The notes: generated by a model from the sequence alone, not told the origin. Numbered from the stretch's first letter, positions 15,710 to 27,958 are shown. The stretch is 29,218 nucleotides of DNA from an uncultured Planctomycetales bacterium (GCA_964506175.1 CAZDMB010000005.1:1-29218), one strand, 5' to 3'. Translations and numbers: made by a program.

Positions 15710-18364
15710 TCACTCCGCCGGGTCGGACTTGCGCTTCGCCTTGCCGGCCGACTTGGCGGCCCGCGCCATCTCCTTCAGACGGCGCTTCAACTCCTTGCGC
15801 ACGTCGCGCCCGAGCCGCTCCTGCAGCACGATCTCCAGTTCGCCGCCGGTTCCCGGGCCCTCGCCCGCGGCCGCCGGCACCGGCGCCGGCGCGCCCGGCC
15901 CGCGCGGTCCCGGCCGGCGCAGCACCACCAGGAAGGGATCGCGCAGCGCGCCGAGGAAACGGCGCCGCGCCAGCACCCGCACGGTGTCGCCGTGCACGAG
16001 CGCCTGCACGCGGCCCGCCCACTTGCAGTCGCGCTGCAAAGCGGCCACCGTCGACAAGCCGGCGTCCACGCCCTGGCGCCGGCCGAGGAGCTCCAGGCAG
16101 GCGCAGCACAGGCCATCCAGCATTTCCTTGTTGCTGACCGGCTGACGGCACAGGCCGCAGGGCTCGGTCTCGCCGACGTCCACCACCAGGCCGCTGATGC
16201 CGCAGTGCACCGCGCGATCGCGCGCAATCCGCTTGCCGGAGAGTTCGCTGATCACCAATTCGTCCGGGAACACGGGCCGGCGCGTGGTCTCGCACAGCAC
16301 GAGCAGCTCCTTCGCGCCGCGTTCGCCGCTCAGCTTCGAAACTCCCATGAACTGCGGCAGCATGCGCCGGCCGCTGCGCGAGCAGGTCTGTAGCATGTCT
16401 GGGCGCACCCGCTTGCCGCTGGCTTCGCAGGTGGCCAGGTACTCGTCCAGCACCTTGTTGCCGCTGACTTGACAAGTTCCGAGGAGTGACGGCAGAACGC
16501 GTTTGCCGGTCGCGGAGCAGGTGGCGAGTTCCTCCGGCAGGGCCGGCGCGCCGGTCACCGCGCAGTGCACGACGATGTCCTCGGTGATCTCGGCTCCCGA
16601 CACCGCCGAACGGACCAGGTTTTCCCGCAGCGTTTTCTTGCCGGTGCGCTCGCACGACACGAGCAGTTCCTTGAGCACCTTGCTGCCGGTCACTTCGTTG
16701 ACGCCGAGCAGCGAGGGCATCACGCGCTTGCCCGTGATGCTGCAGGCCTCGAGCACGCCCGGCGCCACCAGTTCGCCGCTGACTTCGCAGTGCTCGGCCA
16801 CGCGCCGCAGGATGCGCCGGTGGGTGGCCGCGCAGGCCACGAACTGGTCCGGGTGCGCCATCACCCCCGTGGCGGCGCAGCGCTCCAACTTGTCCGGCAG
16901 GGCCTGCCGACCGGTCTCCTGGCACTGCGTCAACTCGGTCGCCAGCACCTGCGCGCCGGTGATCGAGCACGAGCCGAAGCGTTCGGCCAGGGTGTGCAGG
17001 CCGGTGCGCGGGCACTTGCGCAGCAGGCGTTGCAGCACGCGCAAGCCGGTGACGTCGTCCATGCCGAGCAGCGAGCGCCGCACGCGGCGGCGCGTCGCCG
17101 CGCACGTCTCGAGCGCCTCCGGCGCGCACGGCGCGCCGGACTCCTCGCAAGCGATGGCCTTCTCCTTCAGCAACCAGTTGCCCGTCTCGGCGCACTGCAC
17201 CAGCAGGTCCTTGGCCACCCGGCGGCCGGTCACCGCGCAGGTGCCGATGTGCTCGGGCAGCACGCGGCGCCCGGTGGCGGCGCAAGTCTGCAGGAGGGAG
17301 CGCCGCACCCGGCGTCCGGTCGCCGCGCAGGCCTCGAGGCCCTCCGGCAGCACTTGCACGCCGGTGGCCGCGCAGGCGTCGAAGAACTGGGGACGCGCGC
17401 GTTTGCCGGTTTCCGGGCAGACCCGCAGCAGCGTGTGGCGAACTTCGGCGCCGCTCACTTCGCAGCGGCCGAGCGCCTCCGGCAGCACCATCAGGCCGGA
17501 TTCCGCGCACTTGCGCAGGTGGCTCGCGCAGCCGAAGGCGCCCGTCTCCGGGCAACTCGCGCCCTCTTCCGGCAGCAGCCGCGCACCGCAGCTGCTGCAG
17601 GCGCGGATTTCCTGCGGCAGGGCCAGGCGGCCGCTGGCGTCGCTGCGCACCATGGACTCGGGCAGGGCGCGCGCGCCGCTCACGGCGCTGGCCACGAAAA
17701 ACTCCTCCAGGCAGAGTTCGCCGCTGACCGGATCCTGGAACAGCAGGTCGCGCGCGACGCGCTTGCCGGAGCGCGCGCAGGTCGCGACTTCGTCCGGCAA
17801 CAGGGAGCGCCCGCTGGCGGCGCAGTTCACCAACTCGTCGGCGAAGGCCCAGCGGCCGGAGAGCGCGCTGCGCACGAGATCGACCTTCGGGCCGGCGCGG
17901 CCGGAGACCGCGGAGTGGGCGATCTCATCCTGCAGGAAGACGCGTCCGTCCGCCAGGGTCACGCAGCAAGCCGCGCACGCCCTGCCGCCGCCCGCCGTCA
18001 GCGTGAGATGCTCCGCGCACAGCGACTTGTCGCAACCGGCGCAGCTCGCGGCGTGGCGCTCGCAGTGCTCCTTGCCGCAGTCGGCGCAGGCGCTCAGGCC
18101 GCCGCTGTCCTGCGCATGTTCCGGGCAGTGGCCGTTCGTGCAGCCGGGAGTGGCGCAGGTGCGGATGGACCCAGCCGGGACCAGGTGGCCGCTGGCGCAG
18201 GCCCACAGCGGCGCATCCGCCGCGGCGCCGGCGGGCAAAGGCAGTTCGTCGAGCAACACGCCGCTCACCGGCACGCACCGCAGGCGCAACGGCCAGGCGG
18301 CGCTCTGATCGCGGTGGCGCACGCGCGCCTCCACCGTGACGATGGAGTAGAGCACGCCAATCAC
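15710..18364 (-). CDS. Cys-rich repeat protein: B-box-like Zn-finger cluster plus 39 tandem 15-aa C-x-x-[ST]-G repeats; probably the C-terminal half of the upstream helicase-like gene
   Basis: 884 aa ORF with host-like codon use. The frame stays open upstream to 18544 with no ATG/GTG/TTG before 18364, and good codons continue to about 18457 (ADLAAFLQHAAS...). Confidence 0.85.
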   Translation of the reverse strand: MIGVLYSIVTVEARVRHRDQSAAWPLRLRCVPVSGVLLDELPLPAGAAADAPLWACASGHLVPAGSIRTCATPGCTNGHCPEHAQDSGGLSACADCGKEHCERHAASCAGCDKSLCAEHLTLTAGGGRACAACCVTLADGRVFLQDEIAHSAVSGRAGPKVDLVRSALSGRWAFADELVNCAASGRSLLPDEVATCARSGKRVARDLLFQDPVSGELCLEEFFVASAVSGARALPESMVRSDASGRLALPQEIRACSSCGARLLPEEGASCPETGAFGCASHLRKCAESGLMVLPEALGRCEVSGAEVRHTLLRVCPETGKRARPQFFDACAATGVQVLPEGLEACAATGRRVRRSLLQTCAATGRRVLPEHIGTCAVTGRRVAKDLLVQCAETGNWLLKEKAIACEESGAPCAPEALETCAATRRRVRRSLLGMDDVTGLRVLQRLLRKCPRTGLHTLAERFGSCSITGAQVLATELTQCQETGRQALPDKLERCAATGVMAHPDQFVACAATHRRILRRVAEHCEVSGELVAPGVLEACSITGKRVMPSLLGVNEVTGSKVLKELLVSCERTGKKTLRENLVRSAVSGAEITEDIVVHCAVTGAPALPEELATCSATGKRVLPSLLGTCQVSGNKVLDEYLATCEASGKRVRPDMLQTCSRSGRRMLPQFMGVSKLSGERGAKELLVLCETTRRPVFPDELVISELSGKRIARDRAVHCGISGLVVDVGETEPCGLCRQPVSNKEMLDGLCCACLELLGRRQGVDAGLSTVAALQRDCKWAGRVQALVHGDTVRVLARRRFLGALRDPFLVVLRRPGPRGPGAPAPVPAAAGEGPGTGGELEIVLQERLGRDVRKELKRRLKEMARAAKSAGKAKRKSDPAE
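16160..17914 (-). repeat. Coding tandem repeat, 39 x 45 nt (15 aa), consensus C-x-x-[ST]-G-x-x-hydrophobic-x-x-x-x-hydrophobic-x-x
   Basis: Manual parsing from SAVSGRAGPKVDLVR (aa151) to CGISGLVVDVGETEP with no indels. Cys at position 1 in 29/39 units, Ser/Thr at position 4 in 38/39, Gly at position 5 in 36/39. Confidence 0.95.
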
Positions 18365-20927
18365 GCCCTCGCAGCGGGCGCGGAGCTGCGCCTCCGGGGC
18401 GGCGCGGTTGCCGGCGGTCTGCCGCGAAGCGGCATGCTGCAGGAACGCGGCCAGGTCCGCGCTCCCGCGCGGCCCCTTCGATCGTGGCGCCCGCGCGCTG
18501 GAAGGTCGCGGCGAGCGCGGCGCTGGCGGCCTCGTCCAGGGAGCTCACCATGGGCAGCCGCGAGCCATCGGGCGCCGGCAGAGTTTCCGGAGCGTCCAGA
18601 TAGGCCTCGAGCTTGTGCCCCGGGGCGCAGTCGCGTACTTCGAAGAGCGACTCCTGCCGCTCCGGGCCGCTGGCCGCGCAGGCGCTCATCTGCAAGGTGC
18701 TGGCCGCGATGGGTTCGCTCGCGGCGGCGCTCACGGATTCCAACAGCAGACCGTGGGCCGCGAGCCGCTCCTGCAGCTTGCGCGCCACCCGATCGAGCGG
18801 ATAGTTCCGCGCGTCCGCAAGGAAGAAGCGCGAGCCTTCGCGGAAGCCCGCCGTCAGGCGCTGCCAGGCCCACGAGCCCGGCTCGCACACGAGCACGCGC
18901 TCGCCGGCGGCCGGTTGGCGCGCCAGAGTGCGCCCTGCGGGGTCGGGCGTGCGCAACTCGAAGTGCTGGCCGCCCTCCTCCAGCAGGATGCGCTTGTCGT
19001 CGGTGACGTGCCAGCCTCCCGTGCGCAGCTCCAGGCTCGCCGCGACCAATTGCGCGACGCTGAACCGCGGCGGCTCGCCCAGGTTCTCGCGGCGCCGGCG
19101 GGGCGTGGTGCGCACCAGATCTCCGAGCACGCGATCGGTGTTGCGGCGCCGTTCGGCGCGGCCGCTCTCCGCGGCTTTGCGCTTCTCGATCAGCGGCAGC
19201 AACTCCTCCTCGCGCTGCGCGCCTTGGAACCAGTCGGCGGCGCGGCCCAGCAGGAAGCGCAGCCAGCCGCGCGCGCCGTCGGCAAAGCCGAGATCGGCGA
19301 GCCAGCCGCTGACTTCGTCCGGCTCGAGTTCGTGGAAGCCGAGGCGCGTCTGCGCGCCGTTGATGGCCGCGTCCTCGGCGGTGCCCTTGAGCACGAAGCG
19401 CCGGATCTGCGTCTTGCCGGACTTCGCGGCGCCCAGGTGCTCCAGGCGTCCCGCGTGATCGGCGGGCTCGAGCGGCAAGTCGAAGTGCACCAGTTCGGTG
19501 ACGGCGCGAATGGCTTGGCCGCGCGCGGCCGCGTCGGGCGCCAGCAGGATGCGGCGCTCGCCCAGGGTGAAGCGCTGGATGGCGAGGCGATTCAGGCCGT
19601 CGTTGCCCTCCCGCAGGGTTTCAAGGTGCTCGATCAAGCCGGCCTGCGACAGCGCCTGCCCCACGCCCGCGGCCGAAGCGGCGCTGCGCACGCAGACCAG
19701 GATGCGCGCCTCGCGATCCTTGAGCGCCTTGCGCGCCAGCGTCGCCAGCTCCGCCGTCTTCGCGGTCTCGCGCATGTTGCGCCCGCGGACGACCAGATCC
19801 TGCAGCATGCGCTTCAGACCAGCCTCGTTCACGAGGTTGCGCGACAGCGCCTTCTCGACCGCGTCGGCGAAGTGCCACGGTCCGCCGAGAGCGGCGGCCA
19901 GGTAGTGTTCGCGCGCGCCTTCCGGAAAGCCGAGAGCCGCGCGGAAGGCGAGTTCCAGGTATTCCTTCTCGCGCGGCTGCGTCTCGACCAGATGCTCCTT
20001 GACCGTGCGCCGCGGGCGCTTGGCGCCGGCTTCGGCCGGCCCCGCGCCGCGGCGGCGCATCCACGCCGCCAAGCGCGCGCGCAGTTCCTCTTCCGCCCCG
20101 CGGCGGACGAAACGCGCCTGCGCCTCGCCCTGCAAGAAGGTCTGCACGAACTCCTCCCACGGGCCGAGCGGGTGCGGCACCTGGCCGCGCACGAGGTCGA
20201 GCGCGCGGTGCAGCGTGGCGAAGCCGTCGTGCATCGGCGAGGAGCTGCGCGCGAAGACGAAGGCCTGCTCGGCGTTCAGCACGCGCCGCAGGGCGCGCTG
20301 GTTCTCGGCGCTCACTTCGTGCGCCTCGTCGATCAGGAGAATGCCGAATTCACGATCAGCGAGCTGCTGCGCGCGCTGCGCCGCGGTGGCGTGGTCGATC
20401 ACCCAGCAGGCGCCGTCGCGCAGGTGCGCGAAGTCGTCCTCGCCGCAGAGGCGCGCCGGCAGGCCGTATTCGGACTCGAGGCGCTCGACCCATTCCGCCG
20501 CGTTCGCCGCGGGGCACAGCACCAGCAGGCTGTCGGCCTGGCCGCGCTCGATCAGCTCGGCGGCCGCCACGGCCATCGCCTGGCGCACGGCGTCGCCGTC
20601 CTCGTCGCAGACGAGCGCCCGCGGACCCAAGTCGCGCAGCATGGCGAGCGCGTGTTCGATCACCGCGTCCGCCGGCTCGAGTTGCCGGCGCTCCAGACAG
20701 GAGAAATCCGCGCGCTCGTTCAGGGCCAGACCGCGCGCCAACTCGTGCTGCCGCACCGCGAGCCGCAGGCGGAAGGACTTGCGATCCGCCGCCGGCTTGT
20801 CGGCGCTCTCCAGCAGCCAAGCGGCGAGCGCCGGCGCTTCGAAGGGAATCTGTTGCGGAATCGCGGAGGCGCCGGGGTTCGGGGTCCCAGTCGCTCCCGA
20901 AATGGAGGCGGGCGAAAGCTTGCTCAT
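17925..20927 (-). CDS. SNF2/RapA/YqhH-like helicase homolog with degenerate ATPase motifs (pseudo-helicase); genuine coding probably ends near 18459 at a frameshift
   Basis: Likely start is ATG 20927. RALVCDEDGDAVRQ (motif I position), LLVLCPAANAAEW (Ia), LLIDEAHEV (II), ILLAPDAAARG (V) and HFDLPLEPADHAGRL (VI position). Translation turns into low-quality R/A/P-rich sequence after IEGAARER. Confidence 0.75.
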   Translation of the reverse strand: MSKLSPASISGATGTPNPGASAIPQQIPFEAPALAAWLLESADKPAADRKSFRLRLAVRQHELARGLALNERADFSCLERRQLEPADAVIEHALAMLRDLGPRALVCDEDGDAVRQAMAVAAAELIERGQADSLLVLCPAANAAEWVERLESEYGLPARLCGEDDFAHLRDGACWVIDHATAAQRAQQLADREFGILLIDEAHEVSAENQRALRRVLNAEQAFVFARSSSPMHDGFATLHRALDLVRGQVPHPLGPWEEFVQTFLQGEAQARFVRRGAEEELRARLAAWMRRRGAGPAEAGAKRPRRTVKEHLVETQPREKEYLELAFRAALGFPEGAREHYLAAALGGPWHFADAVEKALSRNLVNEAGLKRMLQDLVVRGRNMRETAKTAELATLARKALKDREARILVCVRSAASAAGVGQALSQAGLIEHLETLREGNDGLNRLAIQRFTLGERRILLAPDAAARGQAIRAVTELVHFDLPLEPADHAGRLEHLGAAKSGKTQIRRFVLKGTAEDAAINGAQTRLGFHELEPDEVSGWLADLGFADGARGWLRFLLGRAADWFQGAQREEELLPLIEKRKAAESGRAERRRNTDRVLGDLVRTTPRRRRENLGEPPRFSVAQLVAASLELRTGGWHVTDDKRILLEEGGQHFELRTPDPAGRTLARQPAAGERVLVCEPGSWAWQRLTAGFREGSRFFLADARNYPLDRVARKLQERLAAHGLLLESVSAAASEPIAASTLQMSACAASGPERQESLFEVRDCAPGHKLEAYLDAPETLPAPDGSRLPMVSSLDEAASAALAATFQRAGATIEGAARERGPGRVPAACRFAADRRQPRRPGGAAPRPLRGRDWRALLHRHGGGARAPPRSERRLAVAPAVRAGERRVARRTAFARRRRGGCAAVGLRQRPPGPGWVHPHLRHSRLHERPLPGTCAGQRRPERLRRLRQGALRAPRRELRRLRQVAVRGASHADGGRRQGVRGLLRDPGGRTRLPAG

Positions 20928-21055
20928 GATTGGAAGAAAGGCTCCCTCCTTATCGGGCTGGAAGCGCCCTGGCATGAAACAAGACCTTGCCGTTGTCCTT
21001 CTGCTCCCGGATTCCGCGGCAACCCGGCCCGGTTCTGCCGATAAGAGGGACCGGG

Positions 21056-22555
21056 ATGCGGACCTCAAGGTCACTCGTCGGCGCGGCGTGCGCCGCCGCG
21101 GCGCTGACGGCTTGCCTCGCGGGCGGCGGGGGCACGCCCACGGGCGAGGCGGAACTGGACGTCCAGCTGGCCGCCCTCATCCTCGAGCACGGGCTCACCG
21201 GGAGGCCGGAACTCCTGGCCACGAACGAAGGCGAGAACCTCCCGCGCCTGGACGATCCGCTGGTCGAACTCGGCAAGCGCCTGTTCTTCACGCGCTCTCT
21301 CGGCGGCAACTTCACCTCGACCTGCGCGAGTTGCCACCATCCGCTGCTCGCCGGCGGCGACGCGCTCACCCTGCCGGTCGGGGTGGACGCGGTGGACCCG
21401 GCGCGCGTCGGCCCGGGCCGCCAGCAAGCGCCCGGCGCGGCGGGCTATGACGGCGGCCCCAACGTGCCGCGCAATTCCCCCACCACCTTCAACAGCGTGC
21501 TCTATCGCAAGGCGCTGTTCTGGGACGGCCGCGTGCGCCGCAATCCGCTGGACGGCGGCATCCTGACGCCGGATTCCGCCGGTCCGACCGCCAGCGACCC
21601 GGACGCGGGTCCCTCGCTGCTGGCCGCGCAGGCGCGCTTCCCCGTGACCTCGGAGGAGGAGATGCGCTCCTTCGACTTCGAGATCAACAGCACGCGCGCC
21701 GAGGTGCGCGCGCACCTGGCTGGCCGCCTCGGCCACTACGGCGCCGGCGTCGGCGAGATTCCGGATTCGTGGCTGCCGCTTTTTCGCCGCGCCTTCGATC
21801 AGCCCGCCGGCACCGCCCAGGACCTGATCCACTTCGGCACCATCAACCTCGCGCTCGCCGCGTATCAGGCCTCGCAATTGTTCGTGGACAATCCGTGGAA
21901 CCGCTACGTGCTGGGCGAGACCAAGGCCATCAGCACGGCGGCCAAGCGCGGCGCGCTCCTGTTCTTCCGCACGCCGGCGCACGGCGGCGCCGGTTGCGCC
22001 GCGTGCCATTCCGGCGATTTCTTCACCGACGAGGACTTCCACATCCTCGCCATGCCGCAGGTTGGACGCGGCAAGGGGGACGTCAACGAGCTCGGCGAAG
22101 CCACCGGCGACTTCGGCCGCTGGCAAGTGACGGGAGACGCCCGCGACAAATTCGCCTTCCGCACGCCGACCCTGCTGAACGCCGAGGTGAGCGCGCCCTA
22201 CGGCCATGACGGCGCCTACGACGCGCTGGCGGACGTGATCCGGCATCATCTGGACCCCGTCGGCATGGCCGCGAACTACTACTGGCCGCAGACGGACCCA
22301 GGCACGCAAGTGTCCTCGATGATCCAGAACACCGGCGAGGCGGTGGCGGCGCTGCTGGCGGCGCGGGCGCAAGGCCGCTCGCTGCTGCCGACCGGCGTGG
22401 CCCTGACCAATCAGGACCTCGGCGACCTGCTCGCCTTCATGAAGGCCCTGACGGACGCGCGGGTGAAATCCGCGGCGGCGCTGGAGCCGTGGGTGGCGCG
22501 CGATGACGCGCAATTCACCGACTCGCAGTTGCTCGACGCCAGTTTCCAGAACTGA
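21056..22555 (+). CDS. Di-haem cytochrome c peroxidase / MauG-like lipoprotein
   Basis: Start re-assigned to ATG 21056. Lipobox LTAC; CASCH and CAACH; RNSPTTFN, LFWDGR, FRTPTLLN and PYGHDG. Confidence 0.9.
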   Translation: MRTSRSLVGAACAAAALTACLAGGGGTPTGEAELDVQLAALILEHGLTGRPELLATNEGENLPRLDDPLVELGKRLFFTRSLGGNFTSTCASCHHPLLAGGDALTLPVGVDAVDPARVGPGRQQAPGAAGYDGGPNVPRNSPTTFNSVLYRKALFWDGRVRRNPLDGGILTPDSAGPTASDPDAGPSLLAAQARFPVTSEEEMRSFDFEINSTRAEVRAHLAGRLGHYGAGVGEIPDSWLPLFRRAFDQPAGTAQDLIHFGTINLALAAYQASQLFVDNPWNRYVLGETKAISTAAKRGALLFFRTPAHGGAGCAACHSGDFFTDEDFHILAMPQVGRGKGDVNELGEATGDFGRWQVTGDARDKFAFRTPTLLNAEVSAPYGHDGAYDALADVIRHHLDPVGMAANYYWPQTDPGTQVSSMIQNTGEAVAALLAARAQGRSLLPTGVALTNQDLGDLLAFMKALTDARVKSAAALEPWVARDDAQFTDSQLLDASFQN

Positions 22556-27519: not shown

Positions 27520-27958
27520 CTACCTCGGATTCTTCTGATAGGCGCCGATGTCGCGGTCGGTCAGCACTCCGGTCCGCGCAAAGTCCGTGTAATCACGCGC
27601 GGAGTTGGGACCGATGTTCGCGAGGTAGAACTGAGAGGCGAGTAGGCTGGTCCAATTGATCGGGCCAACGAAAGCGGAACTGACGTCAGCTTCCGTGTAG
27701 ACTTGGAAGCCAGGAGTCAATCCGCTCCCGACATACCGGCACGCCTCGACTCCGAGCAGTCCCTGGATGCGGACGACGTCGTTGGGCTGAAGCGCGACCG
27801 CGGCCAGCCGGGCCGTGATGCTCGGATAGGAGCCGGAGATGACGCCGGAGCCGTCCACCACGTAGGTGTTGCCCTGTGCGGGCAGCTCAGGGGCAAGGGA
27901 TAGCCAGGCAGCCAGGCAGCCAGGCAGCCAGGAGAGGGAGACGTGCGAAGGAACGCAT
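27520..27958 (-). pseudogene. Small secreted hypothetical protein, out of frame because of an 8-bp tandem repeat in the signal peptide (possible phase-variable gene)
   Basis: ATG 27958 reads MRSFARLPLLAAWLPGCLAIPCP-stop. Removing two repeat units or adding one joins it to track ORF 27520..27861, giving MRSFARLPLLAAWLSLAPELPA-QGNTYVVDGSG... (140 aa for the two-unit deletion). Confidence 0.7.
27902..27932. repeat. Simple sequence repeat (AGCCAGGC)x3 + AGCCAGG
   Basis: Read directly: a gccaggca gccaggca gccaggca gccagg. Confidence 0.95.

What the first reader, a model, noticed from the sequence alone, without database searches (positions are those of the whole stretch)
19430..20630. SNF2/YqhH-like helicase with systematically dismantled ATPase motifs
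Seen: the motif I position reads CDEDGDAVRQ, motif III reads RSSSP, motif V reads APDAAARG and motif VI reads PADHAGRLEHLG, while DEAH, domain spacing and an open frame with normal codon use are retained. Established: SNF2/RapA enzymes need the Walker A GxGKT (ADEVGLGKT) and the motif VI QRIGR arginine fingers. Inference: loss of several catalytic motifs without nonsense decay points to a pseudo-enzyme scaffold or sensor, for example a decoy for phage anti-helicase factors or a non-catalytic partner of an active paralog elsewhere in the genome.
Basis: partly seen in the sequence, partly recalled or inferred. Interest (0 to 1): 0.7.

Follow-up and report, generated by a model that had tools for sequence, protein, structure and literature searches.

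The report
Domesticated ATP-dead SNF2 with zinc-repeat rod
A group of Planctomycetota bacteria keeps, at one fixed chromosomal site and under selection, a 1,740-residue relative of SNF2 DNA motors that has lost its ATP-burning site in steps while its long zinc-finger-like tail became the most conserved part, which suggests a mobile, defence-island motor turned into a non-enzymatic core-genome protein.

Summary
The motif changes are real and lineage-wide. All 12 orthologues that cover motif I lack the Walker A Lys and have Thr->Arg; dN/dS of the core is 0.06-0.36. The loss is not total: Walker B Asp-Glu and one motif VI arginine are invariant. Orthologues are single ~1,740-aa proteins: dead SNF2 core, YqhG/RapA-C-like middle, a rod of ~39 15-residue degenerate zinc-knuckle repeats, and a small end domain. 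The window copy is split by a 2-nt loss near 18460 (probably assembly or recent; unresolved). More than 100 relatives with this architecture have intact motifs, and 3 of 4 loci checked lie among restriction/helicase genes. The dead forms are one clade nested among them, with a graded series of decay. The two main dead groups share a chromosomal site. No active paralogue was found in four genus genomes (76-84% complete), so the 'partner' and 'decoy' readings are not supported. Best reading: a domesticated pseudo-ATPase platform whose work is done by the repeat rod; its partner is unknown. The scan noted the active family and unrelated dead SNF2s before, but not this clade.

The parts
20949..20956 (-). 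Conserved upstream element CCGA(T/A)AA(G/A), about 20-27 nt before the ATG; possible -10 box (inference)
   Evidence: Present in the window and 6 relative loci within an otherwise divergent spacer
18459..20927 (-). 5' part of the gene (about 823 codons from ATG 20927): N-terminal helices, pseudo-SNF2 core, most of the middle domain
   Evidence: 68.5% identical to residues 1-823 of orthologue P0003; start matches orthologues
20652..20684 (-). Q-motif region; His-Gln of active relatives replaced
20580..20609 (-). Motif I / Walker A: Lys lost, Thr replaced by an invariant Arg, P-loop acidic
   Evidence: 12/12 orthologues with this region; Thr 100% in 86 actives
20313..20333 (-). Motif II / Walker B: Asp-Glu invariant in all 13 orthologues
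20226..20249 (-). Motif III: TAT of actives replaced by R(T/S)SS
19518..19541 (-). Motif V: Thr replaced by invariant Pro; Asp kept
19431..19466 (-). Motif VI: Gln lost, first Arg finger kept, second replaced by His here; 3-residue deletion in front
18200..19070 (-). Middle domain (about 300 aa), weakly YqhG-like / RapA-C-like; spans the frameshift
   Evidence: AF2 pLDDT about 90; Atlas features 0.93 to RapA_C clusters; hhalign 22%, E 0.001 to the gene after a stand-alone YqhH-like helicase
18458..18462 (-). Frameshift: a CG run two bases shorter than the orthologue frame requires
   Evidence: reads inconclusive
15710..18460 (-). 3' part of the gene (about 916 codons, open frame)
   Evidence: 78% identical to residues 821-1737 of P0003; GC3 mostly 0.86-0.98 in this frame
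16136..17917 (-). Rod of about 39 in-register 15-residue C-x-x-(S/T)-G units; degenerate treble-clef/FYVE-like zinc knuckles, preceded by a few full Cys/His units (about 17950-18205)
   Evidence: Exact 15-aa period; regular hairpin+3-10 turn model, pLDDT 92-94; four units align to FYVE-type fingers at Z about 5, rmsd 2.7-3.1 over 51 aa (weak)
15710..16135 (-). Small C-terminal domain, no family match; no nuclease family detected

Best explanation
The gene encodes a domesticated pseudo-ATPase. SHOWN: it descends from a scattered, motif-intact family of SNF2 + middle domain + 15-residue-repeat proteins. One ancestor settled beside a xanthine-dehydrogenase-like operon, lost ATP-site residues in steps (Walker A Thr->Arg first, then the Lys, motif III/V, the motif VI Gln), went through a burst of change in the core, and then came back under purifying selection. 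Constraint moved from the motor to the tail. INFERRED: the protein does not hydrolyse ATP or translocate. The new Arg occupies the Mg2+ site and pairs with the retained Walker B Asp-Glu, which with the retained motif VI Arg holds the two RecA lobes in one fixed shape. That fixed core is a static mount on nucleic acid or on a large partner such as RNA polymerase, and the zinc-knuckle rod is the main binding surface, in a housekeeping or regulatory role. The partner is not identified. The window's own copy carries a frameshift that is an assembly error or a very recent lesion.
For: Shared motif losses in all orthologues against intact motifs in >100 same-architecture relatives. Dead forms are one clade nested among actives in trees that exclude the motif columns and in a tree from the tail alone (100*); P0139 is sister (94) with an intermediate motif state. 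Core dN/dS 0.06-0.36 over 21 pairs; 19 syn: 4 non-syn within the species. Core versus repeat identity is 0.66 v 0.51 in near actives but 0.67 v 0.78 and 0.73 v 0.80 in the two dead groups. The locus is fixed across the genus, and the two dead groups share the same flanking dehydrogenase subunit gene, 77% identical and in the same orientation. 3 of 4 active loci lie among methylase/restriction/helicase genes (not 36). Precedent: D. radiodurans PriA has lost ATPase activity but keeps DNA and partner binding (PMC4504706).
Against: No biochemistry. The salt-bridge lock is argued from co-conservation only; model coordinates could not be inspected and the core model had pTM 0.40. Several nucleic-acid-contact positions (motif IV Arg, motif V Thr) are also changed, so DNA binding is not assured. 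No conserved co-oriented partner gene: ECF sigma + kinase follow it in 2 of 5 loci and not in the window. Retention of Asp-Glu-x-His and an Arg finger also fits nucleotide binding. The long branches of the two dead groups meet in the core tree (warning), though the tail tree and synteny agree.
Confidence: 0.55

Rival explanations
1. Hydrolysis-independent defence sensor: the core still binds nucleotide or invader DNA and the protein still acts in anti-phage defence, now as a stand-alone chromosomal gene.
For: Active relatives often lie in defence-like islands. In HmaA, mutating the motif I Thr did not abolish defence but a motif VI Arg was required (PMC11232893), which resembles what is lost and kept here.
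Against: HmaA needs its NOV_C nuclease; no nuclease or PADLOC family matches the C-terminal 1,140 aa. Neighbours are cytochrome, SDR and peptidase genes. Core-like presence in 4/4 genus genomes and slow change are untypical of defence genes (own knowledge).
Confidence: 0.15
2. Non-canonical but active ATPase: the new Arg replaces the Walker A Lys, and Walker B plus one Arg finger still support slow hydrolysis.
For: Asp-Glu invariant and one Arg finger invariant in 13/13 orthologues; an Arg lies one position after the lost Lys.
Against: Loss of the Mg2+-binding Thr, the P-loop glycine pattern, Q-motif Gln, motif III and motif VI Gln together; only 41 of 116 positions conserved in actives are kept. 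The sister dead group also lost the Walker B Glu. Lys->Arg alone abolishes ATPase in PriA (PMC4504706).
Confidence: 0.08
3. Decoy that soaks up phage anti-helicase proteins.
For: Family origin in defence-like islands.
Against: No active target of the family found in the four genomes to be protected. A decoy should stay similar to its target, yet the core is only 28% identical to its nearest active kin. No sign of diversifying selection.
Confidence: 0.06
4. Non-catalytic subunit of a heteromer with an active paralogue.
For: A common fate of pseudo-enzymes (own knowledge); the genomes are only 76-84% complete.
Against: PF00176 0/4 genomes. Active-family query and profiles find only the dead gene. 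The one SNF2-type fragment, in G001, is a different protein.
Confidence: 0.05
5. The gene is being lost: the frameshift is real and the motif changes are decay.
For: The window has a real 2-nt shortfall at about 18460 while neighbouring full-length genes show no frameshift against orthologues. No listed contig bridges the site to contradict it.
Against: Motif changes are shared by all orthologues, nearly all of them full-length. Window-lineage dN/dS (0.22-0.34 v L030) is no higher than that of intact orthologues. Strain variants beyond the break are 16 syn: 4 non-syn. This can explain at most the single allele (about 1 in 3 that the break is real in this strain), not the clade.
Confidence: 0.06

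Closest known systems
RapA/HepA-YqhH-DrmD group of bacterial SNF2 ATPases (E. coli RapA PDB 6bog; B. subtilis YqhH = HepA, PMC7385302)
   Same: Two RecA lobes with SNF2 spacing; RapA is the top fold hit; the middle domain resembles RapA_C by language-model features; short N-terminus like the stand-alone YqhH-type gene in G050.
   Different: ATP site degenerate; only about 80 residues precede the Q motif, so there is no RapA N-terminal domain (own knowledge); fused 600-aa repeat rod; NF003426 score 14.5 v cut-off 576.
Unnamed active family: SNF2 + middle domain + 15-residue C-x-x-(S/T)-G repeats (Phycisphaera mikurensis, Lacipirellula parvula, Schlesneria, Eisenbacteria and others; annotated only as DEAD/DEAH helicase)
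   Same: Same architecture end to end; direct ancestor group.
   Different: Members have intact motifs, are patchy (5 of 400 other phylum genomes at E<1e-40) and are often in defence-like islands; the dead clade is fixed and tail-constrained.
DISARM DrmD and HmaA (Snf2-type defence helicases; PMC11232893)
   Same: Weak core similarity (DrmD E 2.4e-9, HmaA E 0.0017).
   Different: Far below cut-off (38.8 v 610); no drmA/B/C, methylase or NOV_C nuclease; motifs degenerate.
Deinococcus radiodurans PriA pseudohelicase (PMC4504706)
   Same: Lineage-wide loss of SF2 ATPase motifs with the gene retained.
   Different: A different SF2 family with a known ancestral role; there Walker A Lys->Arg with poor Walker B, here Lys is lost, Thr->Arg, and Walker B is kept.

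Membership tests
SNF2-family ATPase (by descent) | Two-lobe SF2 core with SNF2-type fold and motif spacing | tested here: met
   Foldseek top hits RapA and Sulfolobus SNF2 (E 1e-11); profile hits to active SNF2s to 1e-83
SNF2-family ATPase (active enzyme) | Walker A G-x-G-K-T | tested here: not met
   Lys and Thr replaced in 12/12 orthologues
SNF2-family ATPase (active enzyme) | Walker B D-E-x-H | tested here: met
   Asp-Glu 13/13, His 12/13
SNF2-family ATPase (active enzyme) | Motif VI Gln and both Arg fingers | tested here: not met
   Gln lost; first Arg kept; second Arg is His in the window
SNF2-family ATPase (active enzyme) | Pfam SNF2-rel_dom and Helicase_C above cut-off | tested here: not met
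   No PF00176 hit; PF00271 17.2 v 23.5 bits
SNF2-family ATPase (active enzyme) | DNA-stimulated ATP hydrolysis | not testable with these tools
   Needs an assay
YqhH-YqhG pair | YqhG domain following the helicase | tested here: inconclusive
   PF11079 no match here, nor in G050 where a gene sits in that position; hhalign 22%, E 0.001 to that gene
RapA/HepA | NCBIfam RapA model above cut-off and N-terminal RNAP-binding domain | tested here: not met
   14.5 v 576 bits; N-terminus about 80 aa
DISARM class 1 (DrmD) | DrmD above cut-off, with drmA/B/C and methylase adjacent | tested here: not met
   38.8 v 610 bits; no such neighbours in the window or five orthologue loci
Hma (HmaA) | C-terminal NOV_C nuclease | tested here: not met
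   No PF13020 or PADLOC match in the C-terminal part
Pseudoenzyme | Homology to an active family, loss of catalytic residues, retention under selection | tested here: met
FYVE/treble-clef zinc fingers | Cross-brace fold with full Cys/His ligand sets | tested here: inconclusive
   Z about 5 only; most units keep one Cys, three full units per protein

The most novel reading that the evidence does not exclude
A mobile defence-type SNF2 motor was captured once into the core genome of a Planctomycetota lineage and rebuilt into an ATP-independent structural or regulatory protein, for example a nucleoid or RNA-polymerase scaffold with a 600-residue zinc-knuckle rod. Its active site is self-plugged by an Arg in the Mg2+ site, and living intermediates record each step.
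Probability: 0.3. Interest if true: 0.75.

Novelty: new variant of a known kind. Interest (0 to 1): 0.55.

Why it matters
Bacterial pseudohelicases with a tested function are few (PriA of Deinococcus is the example found), and my searches of the held library found no paper on this repeat-bearing SNF2 family or on a dead bacterial SNF2. This clade gives a natural live / half-dead / dead series with identical architecture, so one can ask directly what an SNF2 does without its motor and what the 15-residue rod binds. It also looks like a case of an island-type gene becoming a core gene. The limits are a narrow range (one genus plus a sister group, all uncultured), no identified partner, and several other dead SNF2s already noted by this scan.

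Tried and rejected
Programmed frameshift: rejected, because orthologues are single open frames. Reads over the frameshift: inconclusive; no listed contig bridges it, and two contigs of one run end on either side of base 18458. RNA contigs touch both halves, but at DNA-like depth in the same sample, so expression is not shown. Start at GTG 21074: rejected for ATG 20927. Link to ECF sigma/kinase: only 2 of 5 loci and not the window. 'Only SNF2 in the genus' as a special feature: rejected, since 34 of 49 family genomes also lack PF00176 hits. Pfam, PDB-sequence and fold searches of the middle domain gave nothing clear, which does not show a new fold. PF26196, precomputed on some orthologues, is not in the local library. 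No sigma-70 consensus promoter or terminator upstream. The Kaur 2020/2021 conflict-system papers do not describe this family in the passages searched. No complex prediction was run, because no candidate partner had support.

Full report
OBSERVATION. The quoted motifs lie in the minus-strand ORF 17925-21074 at the stated place, in the frame with GC3 0.84-0.98. Pfam sees only sub-threshold Helicase_C/ResIII. An AlphaFold model of the core (mean pLDDT 70, pTM 0.40) has RapA and Sulfolobus SNF2 as best fold matches. A profile search of 1.84 billion proteins returns SNF2 helicases down to E 1e-83. The SNF2 descent is secure.

THE GENE IS LARGER THAN THE FINDING. Twelve orthologues at 55-73% identity exist, nearly all 1,707-1,742 aa; two shorter ones are cut. 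The window matches residues 1-823 of P0003 in one frame and 821-1737 in another, and GC3 switches frame near 18460, where a CG run is two bases short. The full architecture is a short helical N-terminus, the SNF2 core, a ~300-aa middle domain, a few full zinc-finger units, about 39 units of exactly 15 residues with C-x-x-(S/T)-G, and a small end domain. The middle plus part of the rod folds at pLDDT 91 as a regular hairpin repeat. Four units resemble FYVE-type zinc fingers weakly (Z about 5), and similar tails occur on archaeal HerA and Mrr proteins and on stand-alone proteins in the Atlas (TM at most 0.40). The middle domain resembles RapA_C by language-model features and weakly the gene that follows a stand-alone YqhH-type helicase in G050; Pfam YqhG does not match. 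Public contigs do not bridge the frameshift. The window lineage shows no relaxed selection and strain variants are 19 synonymous to 4 non-synonymous, 16:4 beyond the break. The break is therefore an assembly slip or very recent.

WHAT IS LOST AND KEPT. In all 12 orthologues that cover motif I, the Walker A Lys is gone and the Thr is an invariant Arg. The Q-motif Gln, motif III TAT, motif V Thr and motif VI Gln are also replaced. Walker B Asp-Glu is invariant. In the family alignment the first motif VI arginine finger is invariant too, after a 3-residue deletion, and the second is kept in about half. Of 116 core positions at least 90% conserved in 86 active relatives, 41 are kept. 'Systematically dismantled' is thus right for the phosphate/Mg2+ side and overstated for motif VI.

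ORIGIN. A search with the repeat region finds 390 proteins; of the 109 non-orthologues listed, all but four have intact motifs where covered. Those four (P0029-P0032; one labelled Planctomycetota UBA1135) form a second dead group that has lost the Lys, has the same Thr->Arg, and changes Walker B Glu in two of three. A further Planctomycetota protein, P0139, keeps the Lys but has Thr->Arg and Glu->Gln. Trees without the motif columns, and a tree from the tail only, place both dead groups as one clade inside the active family (99*, 100*), with P0139 as sister (94). These are quick trees on subsets of rows, and the core tree carries a long-branch warning. The stems are long in the core (1.0-1.7) and shorter in the tail (0.36-0.49). 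Synteny supports one origin: the dehydrogenase small-subunit gene directly upstream of the second dead group lies 10 kb upstream of the first group's gene in G001, 77% identical and in the same orientation. One unrelated independent decay exists (P0250).

SELECTION AND CONTEXT. Pairwise dN/dS is 0.06-0.36 in the core, 0.13-0.46 in the middle and 0.06-0.34 in the tail (Nei-Gojobori). In near active relatives the core is more conserved than the repeats (0.66 v 0.51); in both dead groups the order is reversed (0.67 v 0.78; 0.73 v 0.80). The gene is in 4/4 genus genomes and in no other of 339 class genomes at orthologue level. It sits between PSD1/DUF1501 (with or without a di-haem peroxidase gene) and an SDR plus M28 peptidase, with a conserved upstream element. 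Active relatives are scattered; three of four loci read lie among methylase, restriction or helicase genes (not 36). No SNF2-domain gene or family paralogue was found in the four genus genomes (76-84% complete), but that absence is common in the family.

MECHANISM. Shown: descent from an active family, stepwise motif loss, fixation at one locus, purifying selection, and a shift of constraint to the tail. Inferred from established P-loop chemistry: no ATP hydrolysis. Inferred from co-conservation only: the new Arg fills the Mg2+ site against the retained Asp-Glu and fixes the lobes, making a static mount, while the rod is the main binding surface. The partner (nucleic acid, RNA polymerase or another protein) is not identified; B. 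subtilis YqhH is described as an RNAP-interacting translocase (PMC7385302), which is only a lead. The strongest rival is hydrolysis-independent defence: HmaA tolerates loss of the motif I Thr but needs a motif VI Arg (PMC11232893). It also needs a nuclease, and none is detected here.

COMPARISON AND NOVELTY. It is an SNF2 by descent, not an active member, and not RapA, DrmD or HmaA by the tests run. The nearest precedent in kind is the PriA pseudohelicase of D. radiodurans (PMC4504706). Literature searches found no description of the family or the dead clade, within the limits of the library. Earlier notes of this scan describe the active family (e1-1547106, e1-2535847) and other unrelated dead SNF2s, but not this clade in another genome.

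VERDICT. Real, conserved and undescribed in the sources searched; a new variant of a known kind. Confidence that the clade is ATPase-dead and selected is about 0.85; in the full scaffold reading, 0.55. Interest 0.55.

Noticed in passing
window 27523-27756 (-): Only the last ~95 codons remain (48% identity) of a 724-aa gene that is whole between DUF1501 and the FG-GAP gene in relative L030; looks like a deleted remnant.
   Followed up: partly
window 20949-20956 (-); L027, L028, L030, L044, L046, L074: Conserved CCGA(T/A)AA(G/A) before the start; six relatives also have TCCAG 17 nt further upstream, which the window lacks at that spacing. Possible promoter of this lineage.
   Followed up: partly
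L027 15251-19959; L028 14876-19590: In some congeners a diverged ECF sigma, a Ser/Thr kinase-TPR and a beta-propeller gene follow the dead SNF2 on the same strand; they are absent from the window and L030, and L074 has a different, convergent sigma fusion. The site just downstream seems to be a variable slot.
   Followed up: partly
L006 / G050:C68: Stand-alone, motif-intact 596-aa YqhH-type helicase followed by a ~340-aa partner gene, i.e. the unfused two-gene form in the same order.
   Followed up: partly
P0250 (1,239 aa, JGI): An independent degenerate member of the wider family with altered Walker A, motif III and VI.
   Followed up: no
ESM Atlas rows: Similar middle-plus-repeat shapes appear in stand-alone ~715-730-aa proteins of Gemmatimonadota/Chloroflexota and on archaeal HerA, Mrr and a phage amidoligase protein (TM at most 0.40); the repeat may be a mobile module.
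   Followed up: no
L047 / G001:C407: Fragment of a different, motif-intact SNF2-type helicase (769-aa open frame) in one congener only.
   Followed up: partly
window 22008: A 1-base deletion in one contig of run X2 within the di-haem peroxidase gene, depth 3.5; possibly an error.
   Followed up: no
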